Shown here: positions 12,077-26,855 of the stretch, piece after piece
How the letters are laid out: the number at the start of each line of letters is the position of its first letter
Position numbering within the stretch: the stretch's first letter is position 1
NCBI GenBank assembly: GCA_963707025.1
Contig: CAVPOM010000006.1
Span: 416,001-480,000 of the forward strand
Direction of reading: 5' to 3'
DNA from: an uncultured Verrucomicrobiae bacterium
GTDB taxonomy: Bacteria; Verrucomicrobiota; Verrucomicrobiia; Limisphaerales; Palsa-1400
Length of the DNA: 64,000 nucleotides
The notes under the pieces: generated by a model
Databases searched by the model: none
Seen by the model: the letters and a program-made list of their open reading frames with translations, nothing else
What the model was told of the DNA's origin: nothing
Translations under genes and position numbers: made by a program

Positions 12077-12204
12077 TCAAACGGGTCAGACCAGAGCTTT
12101 TTCCAATAAGATCTGTAATCGCCTGTATATCATTGAGTTATAGACCGATCTCCCCATGAATGCCGGGCGGTGAAAGGCTGGGAAGTCAGTTCGTGGCATT
12201 GTCA
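12077..12204 (+). repeat. Dispersed ~130-bp element, copy A (GGGTCAGACC end)
   Basis: Aligns by eye with 25990-26116 (+) and 21932-22036 (-). Confidence 0.85.
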
Positions 12205-18438: not shown

Positions 18439-18711
18439 ATGAACGTATCGCTGGGAGAGAAATGGGAGCAATTCGTGGAAGGCAAAGTCAAGAGCGGCGA
18501 TTACCGGACCGCGAGCGAAGTGTTGCGTGACGGGCTGCGACTGCTCGAAAAGGAAGAATTGCTGAAACGCATTTCCGCGGGGTCGCTGCCGGAACTTGAA
18601 GCGAAAATGTTGGCGGCGGCGGAATCGCTCGACGCCGGCAAGGGCGTGGATGGGGAAGAAGTGTTTGCGCGGTTGCGGAAGCGGATTAAAGCACGCCGCC
18701 AGAATGCCTAG
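18439..18711 (+). CDS. ParD-family antitoxin (ribbon-helix-helix)
   Basis: MNVSL...VKSGDY.TASEVLRDGLRLL. Confidence 0.88.
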   Translation: MNVSLGEKWEQFVEGKVKSGDYRTASEVLRDGLRLLEKEELLKRISAGSLPELEAKMLAAAESLDAGKGVDGEEVFARLRKRIKARRQNA

Positions 18712-19027
18712 ATTCATCCTCTCGGAATACGTCGAGCCTGAACTGGAGGCGATTTGGGAATACATCGCCATGGACAACATGGATGTGGCCGACCGCTTCG
18801 TGGACGCGGCTTTCGCTGCTTTTCAGGAACTGGCACGAATGCCGGGCATGGGTCGCCTCCGGCATTGCCCGCAAGCGCGCTTGCGCGAGTTGCGGTCATT
18901 CCGTGTCAAAGGATTCGAAAACTATCTGATCTTTTATGGCCCGATTTCACGCGGCATTGAGGTCTTTCATATCCTTCACGGGGCCAGAGACCTTGAAACA
19001 TTTTGGGAAAGGCCATCCATGCCATAA
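18704..19027 (+). CDS. ParE/RelE-family toxin
   Basis: LEAIWEYIA.DN, LARMPGMG, LRSFRV..FENYLIFY, ILHGARD; overlaps antitoxin. Confidence 0.88.
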   Translation: MPRFILSEYVEPELEAIWEYIAMDNMDVADRFVDAAFAAFQELARMPGMGRLRHCPQARLRELRSFRVKGFENYLIFYGPISRGIEVFHILHGARDLETFWERPSMP

Positions 19028-21329: not shown

Positions 21330-21562
21330 TTGCCCGACGATTAAGAATGGGGGCGGCGTGTTCCTTGGGGAACTTGCCGACCTTTACTTGGAGAAAGCAA
21401 TATTACGCTATATGCGCGGCTGACCTCTTTCGCTTTCCGGTGTCGTTGGGTCAATCCGGAATGGCGCTTAGTAAGGAATTCGGGTTCTTCGCTGTTTTCG
21501 GTGGATTTCTTCCGCCAGGACAACCGCTGGACGTAGCGCAGGGTGCGCTCCCGAGCATTGCT

Positions 21563-21650
21563 CCGTTACAGCCGTTACATCGTTACACCTGTTGCACCAC
21601 AAGCACTTAGGCATTTTAGAGCCGTTACACCCCCGTTACATGCCGTTACA
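21563..21650 (+). repeat. Cluster of CGTTACA direct repeats (3+3 around a spacer)
   Basis: ccgttaca gccgttacat cgttacac ... gccgttacac ccccgttaca tgccgttaca. Confidence 0.85.
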
Positions 21651-21931
21651 TCTTCGGAGGTGTTAAAACTCCCGTGCTTTGCACAATATTATCGGTAACC
21701 CATTCCAGCGCAGCCGTTTCCATGTTGACGGCCATGCGGCGCTCGTGCGGCACGGCCTCCAGTTCAGCCCTCGCCTCACCTCCACGCCGTCGCCCGCCAT
21801 CGCGGCCAGGACCATCAGCGGCTCGAAGGTGTGGCTCGCCCCATCACCGAGGGTTTCTGTTGGCGGCCTCGGCCACAGGCGGGAAGTGCGGCTGAGGGCC
21901 GTTGGGGCGCGGTTTCTCAGGGCGCTGGCAT

Positions 21932-22036
21932 CGCCCGTGCGTCATGGTGAGAGGGTATATTGGACCCATCTATAACTCAATGATTTACAGACTGTTACGC
22001 ATTTTATTGGACAAAGCTATGGTCTGATCCCTTTGA
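21932..22036 (-). repeat. Dispersed element, copy C (inverted)
   Basis: Reverse complement tcaaagggatcagaccatagctttgtccaataaaatgcgtaacagtctgtaaatcattgagttatagat matches copies A and B. Confidence 0.85.
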
Positions 22037-22038
22037 CA

Positions 22039-22305
22039 AACCACTCCGGAAGGCTGCGCCAGGAGGCGGGCCAAGCGGGCGCGGAGGCGCTTATCGCCAA
22101 AGCGCTGAGGCGGCTGGGATGGAAAGAGGACGAATTGGGCAAGCGGGCCAAAAGCGATCCGGGCAAAGTGCGGTTGGCGGCCCAATTGCGCCAGGAGACG
22201 ACCCTGACCATCGGGCAGATCGCGCAGAGGTTGCACATGGGAACCCGCAACACTTTGGCGACAAACCTGCAAGGAAGAAAAGGCACCAACGGAGGAACGG
22301 GATAG
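22039..22305 (+). pseudogene. C-terminal HTH fragment of a RAYT/Y1-type (IS200-like) transposase
   Basis: LRRLGW.EDEL..RAKSDPGKVRLAAQLRQETTLTIGQIAQRLHMGT resembles the tail of verrucomicrobial Y1 transposases (from memory); no HUH catalytic domain present. Confidence 0.65.
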
Positions 22306-22329
22306 TGCAAATATGCGGTTTGACCCCTC

Positions 22330-23731
22330 CCCCCCCCGCGGCATGCTCACAACCAACGGGGCCGGCAGCACCAATTACGCGAACTACGGGTATGACCCTG
22401 TCGGGCAGCTCACCAGCGATTTGGCGGCAGAGCTGATCGGGAGCACCAACCGGATGAACGAGCAGCTTCGTTACGCCTATGACGCGGCGGGAAACCTGAA
22501 TTACCGGACGAACAACACCTTGGTGGAGAATTTCCAGGTCAACAGCGTGAACGAGTTGACGACCGGGACAAATGAGGGCAGATTGACGGTCATGGGAACG
22601 ACCTCATCCCAGGCGACCAACGTGACGGTGAACGGAACGAACGCGCTGCTCTACAGCGACGCGACGTTCGCGGCGACAAACATGCCGCTGACGACCGCCT
22701 ACACCGCCATTGCCAAAGACGCCTACGGCCGGATCAACACCAACACCGCCACGGTGAGCCTGGCGACCAACTCCTCTTTTCAATACGACCTGAACGGGTA
22801 CCTGACGAACGACGGGACGATGAGCTTTGGTTACGACGATGAGAACCAGTTGACGCAGGTGTGGGTGCCGAACCAGTGGTTTTCGCAATTCACCTACGAC
22901 GGCAAAATGCGCCGCCGCATCCGGCAGGAGTACACCTGGTCCGGTGGCTGGGTGCAGACGAACATCGTGTATTACGTCTATGACGGCAACGTGGTCATCC
23001 AGGAACGGGACATCAATAACCTGCCGACGGTCACTTACACGCGCGGAAAGGACCTGAGCGGGAGCTTGGAGGGCGCTGGCGGGATTGGCGGACTGCTGGC
23101 GAGAACAGACAATGATGCGCAACAAACGGCCTTTTATCACGCTGACGGCAATGGCAATGTAACGATGTTGGTCAACTCCTACCAAGCCGTTGTTGCGAAA
23201 TACCTGTATGATGCCTTTGGGAACACGCTGTCTTTGTCCGGTCCGGCTGCCTATGCCAACCTCTACCGCTTTTCGAGCAAGGAAGCGCATCAGAATTCGG
23301 GCTTGGTTTATTACCTATACCGGTACTATGATCCGAATTTGCAGCGATGGCCAAATAGCGAGCCGTTGGGAGATCGAGGTTGGGTGTTTCGTCTAACTGC
23401 GATTACGTCGAAACGCACACTTGATTTAATTGTGGCAAATGGTGGTTTTCTTGGAAGCATCGAAGGCTGGGGTGAAGTTGACTTATATTCATTTTCAAAG
23501 AACAACCCTGTTAACCGAATGGATTCCTTCGGGCTTTCCTCCGGGCAAAATATAGCGCGTGCCATAGCTTGTGGTGCCGCATGCAATTGGTGTTTGTTGT
23601 TACCAGGTGAACACGCCAAGTATTGGTGCGGCATTCTATGTGTCGCGCCATGCATGGAATACTGCACTGGACCTGGAAATTGTGATGGACATTACCACCC
23701 GCCGCCTCCTGGTATCTTTCATGGCAAGTAA
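22330..23731 (+). pseudogene. 5'-truncated (orphan) Rhs core with Cys-rich C-terminal tip
   Basis: YD repeats (YGYDPVGQL, YAYDAAGNL, FGYDDENQL), YHADGNGNV, YLYDAFGN, YYLYRYYDPNLQRW, NPVNRMDSFG; no credible start. Confidence 0.88.
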
Positions 23732-23802
23732 GGAACTTTAAAATCTGAGAATAAGAGCGTTTCATTCATTACAATCCGAACAATTCAATCATAATTACAG
23801 AA

Positions 23803-25253
23803 CACACCCGTCTCATAAGGGGAAAAGTCTGGTGCTGACCTGTTCATTTGCAAGGGTTTAATTGGTCTTCGGGGTAAAATGAGATTTTGATTTTTCCGAG
23901 TTTGGCTTTTGGGTGTGGTATGCGCCTGTTTGGGCGCGTGTGCTGTCCCATAGCTTTATTGGAAGCCGGGGAAATACGCCTGCTCGGGCCGCGCCAAGTG
24001 GCGAAAGCTGCCGCCTGCTGTCCCATAGCACGCCAGCAAATTGAGCAGATCATATTTCTCCCAGAGCGCCGCCCGCAAAATCGTGAACAGCCGGGTGAAG
24101 CTGTGCGCCCAGTTGGAGAGGTGACTGAGGTAGCGCAACAGCACGTAGGTCAACAGCGCCGTCCACACCTGCCAGCGCACGGCGTTGGCGTTGTGGCCCA
24201 GAAAATCCGCCAACTGCAAGGTCTGCTTGATTTGTTTGAAGAAGACTTCGATCTGCCAGCGGCAGCGGTAAAGGTCGGCCACGCTGCGCGGACTCCACTC
24301 CAGGTTGTTGGTCAGGAAGGTCATTTCCCGTTCCTCTCCATCAATCTCGACCAGCGCCACCACCCGGCGCATCAACTCCGGCGCGGGTTTGTTCTCGTTG
24401 CTCAGGACGATCACTTCGTCGCGCAAAATCTTCGGGTCTCTGGAGGCGGGCATTTTCCGCACCACCTCATAGCCCATGTTCTCCTTGGCCCGCGTCACCC
24501 AAAAGACCCCGCGCCCGTCCAAATCCCGCAAGTGGCCGAAGTCCACATAACCCTTGTCGAACAAGGCGATTTCGCCGCTCTTCAAGTCGGCGCACAGTTC
24601 CCGCGCCCGTCGGTTGTCGTGCTCGGCGGCAGTGTCCACAATGACAAAACCGGGCAAAAGATTCTGCAGATTCAACCGCATATGGGTTTTGGCGGCGGCC
24701 TTGCGCCGGCGGTGCTTGGCCCAGTCCAGGCAGTTGGCCACCAGTTCCATGGTCGTGCTATCAATCACATGGATGGGCATCTTGAAACGGAAGGCGGGGC
24801 CACGGCGCTGGCCCGCGGCAAAGCCGGGCGTCTGTGCTTTCAAATGCTCCAGGACCCGCCAGAAGAGTTGTTCGGCCATCTGGGCCGGACGCTCCCGGTT
24901 GGCGTGGGAGAGGCCGTTGCGGCTGGGGGCGCTGGCGCCGCGCAAAGTGGACAGCGGCCCGGAATGCAATTGCAGCGAGTCGCACAGATCGTTGAGTCCG
25001 ATGCAATGGGTGAGTTGCGCGTCCAGCAAACTGACCGTGTGACTCCACGGACTGAAGGTGCGCGACTTATCCAGAGCCCCGGTCTCCCGCGCTATTTTGG
25101 AGACTTCATGCGCAGGAATGAGATTGCAAATCTGGCGCAAAACGTTAAACCGGGACCGTGTTGGTTTGATTTTTTTGTTTTTCATGCCTGCCTTGTGGCA
25201 GGTTCAAATGGTCAAGCCAACACTTTTTTCCAATTTCCTGTGGGTTGGCTGTG
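23803..25253 (-). mobile_element. IS4-family insertion sequence, 1451 bp, 9-bp target duplication ATTACAGAA
   Basis: ATTACAGAA at 23794-23802 and 25254-25262; imperfect terminal IRs CACACCCGTCTCATA / CACAGCCAACCCACA. Confidence 0.9.
23956..25185 (-). CDS. IS4-family DDE transposase
   Basis: IDSTT, FDKGY, YRCRWQIEVFFKQIKQ (YREK motif). Confidence 0.95.
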   Translation of the reverse strand: MKNKKIKPTRSRFNVLRQICNLIPAHEVSKIARETGALDKSRTFSPWSHTVSLLDAQLTHCIGLNDLCDSLQLHSGPLSTLRGASAPSRNGLSHANRERPAQMAEQLFWRVLEHLKAQTPGFAAGQRRGPAFRFKMPIHVIDSTTMELVANCLDWAKHRRRKAAAKTHMRLNLQNLLPGFVIVDTAAEHDNRRARELCADLKSGEIALFDKGYVDFGHLRDLDGRGVFWVTRAKENMGYEVVRKMPASRDPKILRDEVIVLSNENKPAPELMRRVVALVEIDGEEREMTFLTNNLEWSPRSVADLYRCRWQIEVFFKQIKQTLQLADFLGHNANAVRWQVWTALLTYVLLRYLSHLSNWAHSFTRLFTILRAALWEKYDLLNLLACYGTAGGSFRHLARPEQAYFPGFQ

Positions 25254-25310
25254 ATTACAGAAGGCATGTGTGCGATTAAATATCCGATTCATTGTAATCA
25301 TATTAAAGCT

Positions 25311-25520
25311 ATGACTAAAAAACTCTTCGCTATAAGATACTGCATTTTTGTAATCTCTATTATACTCGCTTGGACTTTGTTTTCGGTAATAATTCGGCTA
25401 CAAAATCCTAAATGGCGCGATACCATTACGCTGATGCTAGTCCTTTATTGTACATACAGCACATTGGATGGCATCCTCTCGATGATCGTGAAATGGAGGG
25501 CCAAAAATGGAGCCCCATGA
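25311..25520 (+). CDS. Small AT-rich two-TM protein, candidate Rhs immunity protein
   Basis: MTKKLFAIRYCIFVISIILAWTLFSVII...ITLMLVLYCTYSTLDGILSMIV; follows the Rhs tip once the IS is removed. Confidence 0.5.
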   Translation: MTKKLFAIRYCIFVISIILAWTLFSVIIRLQNPKWRDTITLMLVLYCTYSTLDGILSMIVKWRAKNGAP

Positions 25521-25989
25521 AAGGGTCACCGATAATCCACTAGGCAACCAATAGCATGGCGCGTGCCACCTATTGGAACGGTGCCAAATGAGCTTCACGT
25601 TACTTACCTGCCTCGCCTCGATGGGGAGAGTTTTCACTTATCATTCCGAACGCCTCAACACAAGTGCAAGGGGTAACCCATTAGGGCGGGTGTCAACAGG
25701 CAAAACGCTTCTGTCCCCAATTTTCTTTATTGGGTTCTTCCCGGGCCGCCAAACTCTTCTTTACAGGCCGCATCCGATCCCTTCATTTCGCTCGCGTGAT
25801 TCGGTCCGCTTCCGGTGAAGCGATCCGTTCAGTCACCCATCAGGTTCTAGCGCGGGTTTGACAGCCTGGCCTGTTTTGGCCTTTTCTCTAAAAGCTGTCT
25901 TTGTCTTTTCTTCCCTCTTGGCCTTCGCGCCCAACTCGGTTTTCCGAGTCCAGAAAACGTCCAGTGCCGGGCCGTGTTCATTCAATTTA

Positions 25990-26116
25990 TCAAAGGGGTC
26001 AGACCAGATGTTTGCCCAATAAAATGTGTAATCGCCTGTAAATCATTGGTTTATAGATTGCTCTCCGCATGAATGGCGGGCGGTCAAGGGCCTGGAGGCT
26101 TTTCGTGGCATTGTCA
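25990..26116 (+). repeat. Dispersed element, copy B
   Basis: tcaaaggggtcagaccagatgtttgcccaataaaatgtgtaatcgcctgtaaatcattggtttatag...ttcgtggcattgtca. Confidence 0.85.
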
Positions 26117-26177
26117 TAACCATAATCGCAAACACTCAACCTCATTCCGCCCGGCGGCGAAAAGGCCTTTTCCCGAA

Positions 26178-26612
26178 TCACGCGACGCACAAATTTGCGG
26201 CCTTGGCATTGCTCACGGCAGAAAGGGGAATGCCCTGGTCGAAGGTCACCAATCGCCCCTGATGTTGTGCCGCCAGCGCCAACAAATAGAGATCGGTCAA
26301 TTGGCGCGAACTGTGGATGCGTTCCGCGGCGAAGATCTTGTCGTCACGCAGCGAAATCTCATCCGGCCAGAATTCGTGGTTGCTTTGCCCGGTGAATTTC
26401 CGCAACCGGCCAATCAAATCGCACGGCGCGAACCGCATTTTCCCGCTGTAATTCGGATTGGACATGATGCGGACGACGCCGTTTTCCGTGATCGGACAAC
26501 TGGCCCAGCCGTGTTTGGCATTCGTCGCCCACCAGTCATGAGCGCGTTCGTGAAACGCATGATCGGGGTCGAGCAACGCGATGATGACATTCACGTCCAG
26601 CAGGGCGCGCAT
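26178..26612 (-). CDS. VapC-family PIN toxin
   Basis: LLDVNVIIALLD..H..H, ITENGVVRI, QLTDLYLLALA, LVTFD. Confidence 0.92.
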   Translation of the reverse strand: MRALLDVNVIIALLDPDHAFHERAHDWWATNAKHGWASCPITENGVVRIMSNPNYSGKMRFAPCDLIGRLRKFTGQSNHEFWPDEISLRDDKIFAAERIHSSRQLTDLYLLALAAQHQGRLVTFDQGIPLSAVSNAKAANLCVA

Positions 26613-26615
26613 CGC

Positions 26616-26855
26616 TCAGACTCCTTCCTCGTCCATCAAATTCCGAACACGTTCCAGCGTCACCACTTCGCCGCGCGAGGGCAGCAACGGCACCCCGCCG
26701 CGCGAGCCGGAAATCTTTCTTAATTTCGCGGTCGAACCGGCCAGACCGCGCCGCGCCAAAGTGGAAATGATTTGTCCCGCCGTGCCGCCGTCGCGCTGCG
26801 CCAGTTCCTTGGCCGCTTGCAGCACGTCATCTTCAATGTCTAAAGTTGTTCTCAC
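26616..26855 (-). CDS. VapB-like antitoxin
   Basis: MRTTLDIEDDVLQAAKELA...GQIISTLARRGL. Confidence 0.9.
   Translation of the reverse strand: MRTTLDIEDDVLQAAKELAQRDGGTAGQIISTLARRGLAGSTAKLRKISGSRGGVPLLPSRGEVVTLERVRNLMDEEGV

What the first reader, a model, noticed from the sequence alone, without database searches (positions are those of the whole stretch)
21932..26116. Candidate RAYT-linked gene-fragment capture/shuffling island with junctions at GGTYTGAYCCC
Seen: inverted copies of a dispersed element (21932-22036 and 25990-26116) bracket ~3.95 kb, with their GGTCTGAYCCCTTTGA ends facing inward. Three 5'-truncated coding pieces each begin immediately after such a motif: (1) the Y1-transposase tail after 22021-22036; (2) the Rhs core, starting mid-YD-repeat after GGTTTGACCCC (22317-22327); (3) on the minus strand after copy B, an open stretch DKLNEHGPALDVFWTRKTELG...ALEPDG-stop (25991-25833). 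A related CTGTCCCC motif lies at 25711-25718. Known: RAYTs are HUH enzymes that cut ssDNA at short motif-associated sites, and orphan Rhs tips are a reservoir for toxin switching. Inference: a trans-acting RAYT joins DNA at this motif and builds an integron-like store of 3' gene ends, including toxin tips.
Basis: partly seen in the sequence, partly recalled or inferred. Interest (0 to 1): 0.82.

Follow-up and report, generated by a model that had tools for sequence, protein, structure and literature searches.

The report
Transposase end-tips cut toxin genes short
The repeated motif is the end-repeat of a catalogued but untested family of single-strand transposases; foreign DNA is joined about five bases beyond it throughout this genome and its relatives, which likely explains how many headless Rhs toxin genes arose in this bacterial family, but the island is a pile of such joints rather than an integron-like gene store.

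Summary
The motif is the terminal inverted repeat (TIR) of TIRYT/TnpA-Y1 subclass 2.1 elements; the genome holds 102 TIR sites (6 in a reversed control) and intact enzymes elsewhere. The transposase tail and the headless Rhs are real and start just past TIRs. The third 'coding piece' is not coding: it is the right end of an IS1111-type element that had inserted into another TIR; an IS4 copy was missed. Homology breaks sit +1..+12 nt outside TIRs at 16/89 sites (controls 43/1679) and at 19/151 in relatives (11/568), peaking at +5..+7. Ten of 63 orphan Rhs pieces in this family start at a TIR tip (controls 0.28%; 0/13 full genes; 0/44 in other families). One relative carries eight copies of a TIR-headed Rhs module with three different toxin tips, each joined to a different flank. 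Against an integron: no polarity, genes cut at both ends, mostly non-coding partners, no selection for frame. The scan noted TIRYT junctions before on other DNA; the Rhs link and an IS1111 clade whose guide RNAs covary with TIR cores were not found in earlier notes or papers.

The parts
21459..21841 (.). Dispersed non-coding module rich in GTTACA, present at about ten other places in the genome; often joined to TIR tips elsewhere
21878..22036 (+). Arm A: non-autonomous TIR module. IHF-like site 21975-21987 (consensus recalled), TIR 22007-22031, five-base tip TTTGA 22032-22036. Its TIR matches that of a full TIRYT in a relative (L103)
22037..22327 (+). 3' end of a TIRYT gene (residues 228-315, the predicted helical C-terminal domain; stop 22303-22305) with the element's own right TIR 22303-22327
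22328..22336 (+). Tip of the right TIR with a stuttered C run; the joint to Rhs is at 22336/22337. An ATG inside the TIR (22313) is in frame with Rhs
22337..23731 (+). 5'-truncated Rhs core plus a 65-aa Cys-rich C-terminal tip (23534-23728) with no homologue found; candidate interbacterial toxin tip
23803..25253 (-). Complete IS4-family element (45 full copies in the genome), target duplication ATTACAGAA at 23794-23802 and 25254-25262
25311..25520 (+). 69-aa low-GC hydrophobic ORF; candidate immunity gene by position only
   Evidence: (no Pfam match); inference
25534..25663 (.). Recurrent non-coding fragment, also joined to a TIR tip at G000:C6:62530 and in L208, L209
   Evidence: fold z -1.4, not significant
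25664..25675 (-). Outer half of a TIR with its tip (ACCCC-TTGCAC on the minus strand) that was the IS1111 target
25676..25989 (-). Non-coding right end of an IS1111-type (IS110 family) element with its subterminal repeat; lacks the guide stretch; cut at B's tip.
25990..26118 (-). Arm B: TIR module (tip 25990-25994, TIR 25995-26019, IHF-like site); the joint at 25990 is spanned by a read contig
12077..12200 (-). Third arm (B-type) in the window, outside the island

Best explanation
The island is a chain of TIRYT end-modules whose tips lie joined to unrelated DNA about five bases outside the repeat, and a TIRYT enzyme encoded elsewhere in the genome likely made these joints by one-ended single-strand cutting and rejoining. 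Shown: the TIR identity, the joint geometry (+5 to +7, partner often starting with C), the Rhs enrichment, and the later IS4 and IS1111 insertions. Inferred: the enzyme binds one TIR (no hairpin, so probably through its C-terminal helical domain), nicks at the tip, and joins it to a loosely chosen site nearby. This would give TIR-adjacent deletions, tandem duplications, stuttered tips and hopping TIR-plus-neighbour modules. Here such events would have removed the 5' parts of a TIRYT gene, an Rhs gene and an IS1111 element. In this family they account for a minority of orphan Rhs tips and can likely move TIR-headed tip modules, but they do not build an ordered cassette array.
For: TIR pairs flank full TIRYT genes in relatives and the intact copy at G000:C16:111532-112476; motifs NHFH and YTHLNP, fold like TnpA-REP 4ER8. 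Breaks at +1..+12: 16/89 vs 43/1679 and 19/151 vs 11/568, p 8e-9 and 3e-7; partner begins with C in 18 of 34. Several partners are local copies, including the element's own interior. Orphan Rhs starts at a tip: 10/63 vs 0.28% and 0/13 full genes, at many different core positions. Eight copies of one TIR-Rhs junction with flanks that change 9-10 nt outside the TIR in G020. TnpA-REP cuts at a dinucleotide far from its binding site and does strand transfer (PMC3333891, passages).
Against: No biochemistry exists for any TIRYT. No clean empty site or whole-element insertion was found in the closest relatives, whose slots are rearranged. Only 16 of 89 own sites have an identifiable partner. The A-type TIR has no exactly matching enzyme in this 88%-complete assembly. 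Reads do not cover 22037 or 22327. Host repair acting on TIRYT nicks, rather than TIRYT strand transfer, would leave similar traces. Kin are not independent, so p-values overstate.
Confidence: 0.6

Rival explanations
1. A host-retained capture system: TIRYT creates and mobilises Rhs tip-immunity modules (and other surface or defence genes) as a reservoir for toxin switching, working like a loose integron.
For: TIRYT matches in 31 of 31 family genomes searched. Rhs loci with a TIR: 4/5 here, 9/12 in G020, 2/8 in G019; TIR sites near Rhs 13/89 against IS4 copies 2/45. In G020 the inward TIR gives an in-frame ATG to two independent Rhs families, and three different full tips ride on one junction. 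All four T3-type outward joints keep one frame.
Against: No polarity; 3' cuts as well as 5' cuts; 76 of 89 TIR sites here are not near Rhs; 8/10 open frames against 6.7 expected; 0/44 Rhs starts at a TIR in other families, whose classic orphan arrays lack TIRs.
Confidence: 0.22
2. Ordinary transposon graveyard: TIRtrons insert as whole units into genes in neutral islands, and unrelated host deletions later remove one side, leaving fragments that abut an end.
For: TIR sites cluster (73/102 within 8 kb of another, simulated mean 21); IS4 and IS1111 pile in at the same slots; any IS end abuts the gene it broke.
Against: No target duplication and no matching other half of the gene was seen beside complete TIRtrons; joints to the element's own interior and tandem copies of TIR plus 72-370 nt need breaks at the tip itself; stuttered tips recur.
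Confidence: 0.13
3. The joints were made by the IS1111 RNA-guided recombinase (or by assembly error), not by TIRYT.
For: An IS1111 clade targets the TIR core; two of the three joints are not covered by reads.
Against: IS1111 recombines inside the core (TGA|C), whereas the joints lie 5-9 nt outside it and their partners share no guide-length word; the tail is a third distinct allele, not a collapsed copy; the 25990 joint is spanned by a contig; the same geometry occurs in other assemblies.
Confidence: 0.05

Closest known systems
TIRtron / TIRYT (Di Nocera et al. 2013, PMC3733652, passages read) = TnpA-Y1 subclass 2.1 (Quentin et al. 2018, PMC6006769, abstract, section 11 and part 1 of section 15 read)
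   Same: Y1/HUH gene of about 310 aa with NH[YF]H and Y.HLNP, C-terminal extension, flanked by TIRs with GGGGWSAS-type core; dispersed TIR family; no REP hairpins.
   Different: The passages read describe no tip joints, no cut genes, no link to Rhs and no mechanism; both call for further work.
REPtron / TnpA-REP and BIME diversification (Ton-Hoang et al. 2012, PMC3333891, passages; PDB 4ER8)
   Same: Same fold; enzyme acts in trans on dispersed repeats; low-specificity cut sites; excision/insertion and amplification model fits the tandem TIR modules.
   Different: TIRs here form no hairpin and have no GTAG foot; NCBIfam NF047646 scores below its cut-off; partners include kilobase gene pieces.
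Rhs C-terminal displacement (Jackson et al. 2009, PMC2935791, passages)
   Same: Core fragments of variable length with distinct tips lie apart from full genes.
   Different: There two homologous crossovers through an unexplained circle are proposed; here 10 of 63 pieces begin at a transposase end and most have no parent gene beside them.
IS1111 elements with seekRNA/bridge RNA that target other elements' ends: IS4321/IS5075 (Tn21 TIR), ISPa11 (REP), ISKpn4 (attC) (PMC11187229, passages)
   Same: Subterminal repeats, non-coding region downstream of the transposase, two short guides matching the two target strands, natural reprogramming.
   Different: The target is the TIRYT TIR core, which was not seen in the passages or listings read.
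Integron (IntI/attI/attC; recalled)
   Same: Repeated site at module joints; promoterless or headless cargo.
   Different: No tyrosine recombinase, no polarity, no site-to-site recombination, cargo broken at arbitrary positions.

Membership tests
TIRYT / TnpA-Y1 subclass 2.1 | Y1 core with NH[YF]H and Y[IV]HLNP motifs | tested here: met
   NHFH with YTHLNP or YVHLNP in three intact genes; H60, H62, H123, L124, N125 invariant in 32 sequences; PF01797 above cut-off
TIRYT / TnpA-Y1 subclass 2.1 | Gene flanked by TIRs with GGGGWSAS-like core | tested here: met
   24-nt TIR pair at G000:C16; TIR pairs at 31 of 41 full-length loci of relatives, some fetched twice
TIRYT / TnpA-Y1 subclass 2.1 | C-terminal helix-turn-helix extension | tested here: inconclusive
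   Helical domain 233-311 predicted with high confidence; HTH_31 only 14 bits against cut-off 27; no HTH match in the fold search of the whole chain
TIRYT / TnpA-Y1 subclass 2.1 | No REP hairpins at the ends | tested here: met
   z-scores -0.07, 1.18 and 0.81 for three end stretches
REPtron (RAYT with REP/REPIN) | GTAG-type hairpin REPs flanking the gene | tested here: not met
   NF047646 55 bits against cut-off 80
REPtron (RAYT with REP/REPIN) | ssDNA cleavage and strand transfer by the enzyme | not testable with these tools
   needs purified protein
Integron | Cassettes in one orientation separated by direct sites | tested here: not met
   neighbour orientations 17/12/11/11 of 51 pairs
Integron | Recombination between two copies of the site, leaving whole ORFs | tested here: not met
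   partners lack a TIR and are cut mid-gene at either end
Integron | IntI tyrosine recombinase with attI and Pc | not tested
   none among the island ORFs scanned; the genome was not searched for IntI
IS1111 group of IS110 (for 25676-25989) | DEDD transposase of about 340 aa | tested here: met
   parent at G000:C1: NF033542 184 bits against cut-off 140; PF01548 and PF02371; absent from the window remnant
IS1111 group of IS110 (for 25676-25989) | Subterminal inverted repeats and downstream non-coding region with two target-matching guides | tested here: met
   left guide matches the flank at 5-7 of 7 bases in 9 of 9 loci that hold a left end (five read by eye)
IS1111 group of IS110 (for 25676-25989) | RNA is expressed and needed for targeting | not testable with these tools
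   no RNA data laid; no Rfam match
Orphan Rhs toxin-immunity module | Truncated core with RHS core signature followed by a variable tip | tested here: met
   TIGR03696 56.7 bits against cut-off 32.5
Orphan Rhs toxin-immunity module | Tip is toxic and the next gene protects | not testable with these tools
   no homologue of the tip found; no Pfam match for either

The most novel reading that the evidence does not exclude
TIRYTs are host-retained one-ended DNA joiners that cut toxin-immunity tips out of Rhs genes, cap them with a start-codon-bearing TIR and re-insert them at new sites, supplying the circular intermediates for Rhs C-terminal displacement; their ends are so constant that a clade of RNA-guided IS1111 recombinases has been reprogrammed to each TIR variant.
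Probability: 0.22. Interest if true: 0.8.

Novelty: new variant of a known kind. Interest (0 to 1): 0.55.

Why it matters
Subclass 2.1 is the second-largest group of Y1/HUH enzymes (14.9% of species in PMC6006769) and has no known activity. The joint geometry found here gives a precise cut-site prediction (about five bases outside the TIR, partner ending in G on the strand that carries the tip first) and so makes the family directly testable in vitro. It also offers a concrete source for orphan Rhs tips and for the unexplained circles in the C-terminal displacement model, at least in this Verrucomicrobiota family. The IS1111 clade is a natural series of reprogrammed guide RNAs on one target type.

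Tried and rejected
Piece 3 as a coding remnant: rejected. CTGTCCCC as a joint: rejected. A-B as a composite element: no support (different sub-families, random orientation). A fixed TIR-like site inside Rhs genes: rejected; breaks fall at many core positions and no TIR was seen at those positions in 14 full-gene loci. Selection for in-frame joints: not shown (8/10 against 6.7). Preferential retention of the C-terminal domain in TIRYT tails: 7 tails start at 118-283, too few to tell. Empty-site comparison in congeners: uninformative, slots rearranged. Parent gene of arm A: not found; 5 metagenome matches show the same non-coding mosaic. Hairpin structure of the ends and of 25536-25600: not significant. 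Rfam: none. Single-sequence fold: poor (pLDDT 39), replaced by the alignment-based model. Plasmid collection: one weak hit, not followed. Reads: runs X5-X20 hold small shares and say nothing on habitat; X1-X4 are one study and may be the source; no cover at 22037 or 22327. The first exact-pattern search fixed one spacing and under-counted (complemented). The script stopped before its last four loci.
Full report
Observation. The window is G000:C6:416001-480000; its closest TIRYT relatives lie in Verrucomicrobiota records. The inverted arms are real (78 nt, 82%) and belong to a family found at 20 places in the genome. Exact GGTYTGACCCC occurs 36 times against 7.3 expected. 22037-22327 is the 3' end of a Y1 transposase gene: 280/291 and 278/291 nt identical to copies on C16 and C6, which are 281/291 identical to each other, so it is a third allele. 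22337-23731 is an Rhs core entered mid-repeat. The third 'coding piece' is the non-coding right end of an IS1111-type element: it follows the transposase in G000:C1 and in relatives and has no Pfam match. CTGTCCCC lies inside that end and is absent from 4 of 6 distinct copies. One read contig spans the 25990 joint without a difference; none covers 22037 or 22327; these runs may be the source study.

What the motif is. The intact gene at G000:C16:111532-112476 is flanked by a 24-nt inverted repeat ending in this motif; two more intact genes have a related TIR. TIR pairs were found at 31 of 41 full-length loci of relatives, some fetched twice. The proteins carry NHFH and Y(T/V)HLNP, fold like TnpA-REP 4ER8 (pLDDT 86.5; E 1.2e-6) and have a helical C-terminal domain whose HTH call is weak. 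This is the TIRYT/TIRtron of PMC3733652 (passages) and subclass 2.1 of PMC6006769 (abstract, section 11, part 1 of section 15). The motif at 22317 is therefore the element's own right end. The ends form no hairpin. A- and B-type arms carry an IHF-like word (recalled consensus, one mismatch allowed) in 14 of the 21 sites picked by a loose filter; the other 7 belong to another family.

Genome-wide test. A profile trained on 51 TIRs of other genomes' TIRYT loci finds 102 sites at 18 bits, against 6 in the reversed genome. They cluster (73/102 within 8 kb of another; simulated mean 21, maximum 38), and neighbouring sites have no preferred orientation (17, 12, 11, 11 of 51). Homology to TIR-less DNA begins +1..+12 nt outside the repeat at 16 of 89 sites (20 bits) against 43 of 1679 shifted controls, and at 19 of 151 distinct sites in other genomes against 11 of 568; p 8e-9 and 3e-7 (kin are not independent). 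The peak is +5 to +7; the partner begins with C in 18 of 34 joints (one duplicate dropped). Tips are often stuttered. Partners include the elements' own interiors, giving tandem copies of TIR plus 72-370 nt. Of 93 tip-abutting ORFs at the 73 of 89 sites that lay in fetched loci I scanned 57, plus two island ORFs: 12 had a Pfam family; 6 are cut at the 5' end (Rhs three times, IS1595 transposase, ApbE, exosortase), 4 at the 3' end (Rhs, LRR, TIRYT, MazF-like), 2 look whole.

Rhs link. Among Rhs pieces in loci chosen (plus five own loci; contig-edge pieces set aside), 10 of 63 orphan pieces start 1-27 nt after an outward TIR (3/7 here, 7/56 in relatives), against 0.28% of 8235 control windows and 0 of 13 full genes. 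One of the ten (L157) had its TIR in the training set. Break points range from residue 1082 to 1648 of the reference proteins, so Rhs holds no fixed site. Four pieces are cut at their 3' end by a tip. Ten more start just inside an inward TIR, but those words were read from the same loci. In G020 a 30-nt word gave 12 matches: 8 share one TIR-Rhs junction while their upstream flanks change 9-10 nt outside the TIR, and three carry different full tips (513, 500, 494 aa); 2 head a second Rhs family; 2 head no Rhs. The TIR supplies an in-frame ATG in both families. TIR sites within 3.5 kb of an Rhs core: 13/89 here (0.6% of the genome; IS4 copies 2/45), 17/75 in G020, 2/23 in G019; Rhs loci with a TIR: 4/5, 9/12, 2/8. 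Against a dedicated system: frames stay open across outward TIRs in 8 of 10 cases (6.7 expected), and in other families of the class 0 of 44 Rhs starts lie at a TIR, classic orphan arrays included, though the profile could miss other TIR types there.

IS1111 side finding. All right-end remnants in this genome sit in TIR cores. In 13 loci (3 from this family, 10), the element has subterminal repeats and, behind the transposase, a stem-loop with two short guides. The left guide matches the left flank at 5-7 of 7 bases in 9 of 9 loci with a left end and varies with it (GGTTTGA, GGACTGA, GAACTGA, GGGCTGA); five were read by eye where the script failed. Right flanks read GAC in 10 of 10 and GAC(C/A)C in 8. 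This fits the seekRNA layout of PMC11187229 (passages). The window remnant lacks the guides.

Mechanism. Shown: identity of the ends, joint geometry, enrichment, later insertions. Inferred: TIRYT binds one TIR, nicks at the tip, holds the tip-first strand as a phosphotyrosine, and joins it to a nearby loosely chosen 3' end, as TnpA-REP cuts at a dinucleotide far from its binding site and transfers strands (PMC3333891, passages). A second cut outside the element deletes flank; one inside frees a TIR-plus-neighbour module that can be duplicated or reinserted. In the window the A, tail and B tips each ate into their neighbour, leaving the Rhs tip between two outward-pointing chains; it is left-over flank, not cargo inside a unit. 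In G020 the tip is inside the module and appears to have moved. No clean empty site was found in congeners.

Novelty. The family and the motif are known. 'TIRYT' returned two relevant works and 'TIRtron' one; searches joining Y1/RAYT terms with Rhs listed nothing on this link, and the one paper holding all terms treats them apart (passages). The library lacks most subscription journals, and supplements were not read. PMC2935791 (passages) leaves open how tip-carrying circles arise. Earlier AI notes of this scan report TIRYT ends at module joints in six other genomes and at another locus of this one; I had reached the TIRYT reading before seeing them and tested the joints myself. A look-up for the Rhs and IS1111 links showed nothing. 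Verdict: new variant of a known kind, interest 0.55.

Noticed in passing
G000:C1:77075-80170 (L016, L232) and L203, L205, L233-L242, L271: IS1111-type clade inserted in TIRYT TIR cores; predicted seekRNA guides covary with the TIR variant across the order. The C1 copy is itself interrupted by IS4.
   Followed up: partly
G020: L256-L267: Eight copies of one TIR-headed Rhs module with three different tips, flanks changing 9-10 nt outside the TIR; the TIR gives an in-frame ATG.
   Followed up: partly
window 22033-22305 and 22313: A TTG in A's tip is in frame with the TIRYT tail, which begins at the linker before the C-terminal domain; an ATG in the right TIR is in frame with Rhs here and with a PEP-CTERM-type gene at G000:C6:60844.
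   Followed up: partly
G000:C12:98500-102060 (L014): Nest of a 125-nt mini-element, a duplicated TIRYT 5' part, an intact TIRYT and an Rhs tip, all joined at tips.
   Followed up: yes
window 21461; G000:C10:140007, C3:112621; L115, L196, L250: A module starting AATGGCGCTTA often begins right at a TIR edge or replaces its inner part; it may be the end of another element that targets TIRs.
   Followed up: no
G000:C18:669036, C12:136665, C12:279479, C7:125775, C5:319098, C18:116489: TIR tips abut a cut MazF-like toxin, ApbE, exosortase, a prepilin-like ORF (by eye) and an IS1595 transposase, and a whole AbiGi gene.
   Followed up: partly
window 26178-26855: VapBC-type pair (PIN domain; weak antitoxin match) just outside arm B, not found in the five relatives searched.
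   Followed up: partly
window 18439-19027: Small gene pair that looks like a ParD/ParE-type toxin-antitoxin module (by eye, recalled; not scanned).
   Followed up: no
G000:C14:199524, C3:101946, C10:162608, C3:324218, C6:93941: Other Y1 transposase classes without these TIRs, one in frame inside alanyl-tRNA synthetase (already noted by the scan).
   Followed up: no
G000:C9:23153-31700: Full 2060-aa Rhs-type gene followed by a classic orphan tip with no TIR.
   Followed up: partly
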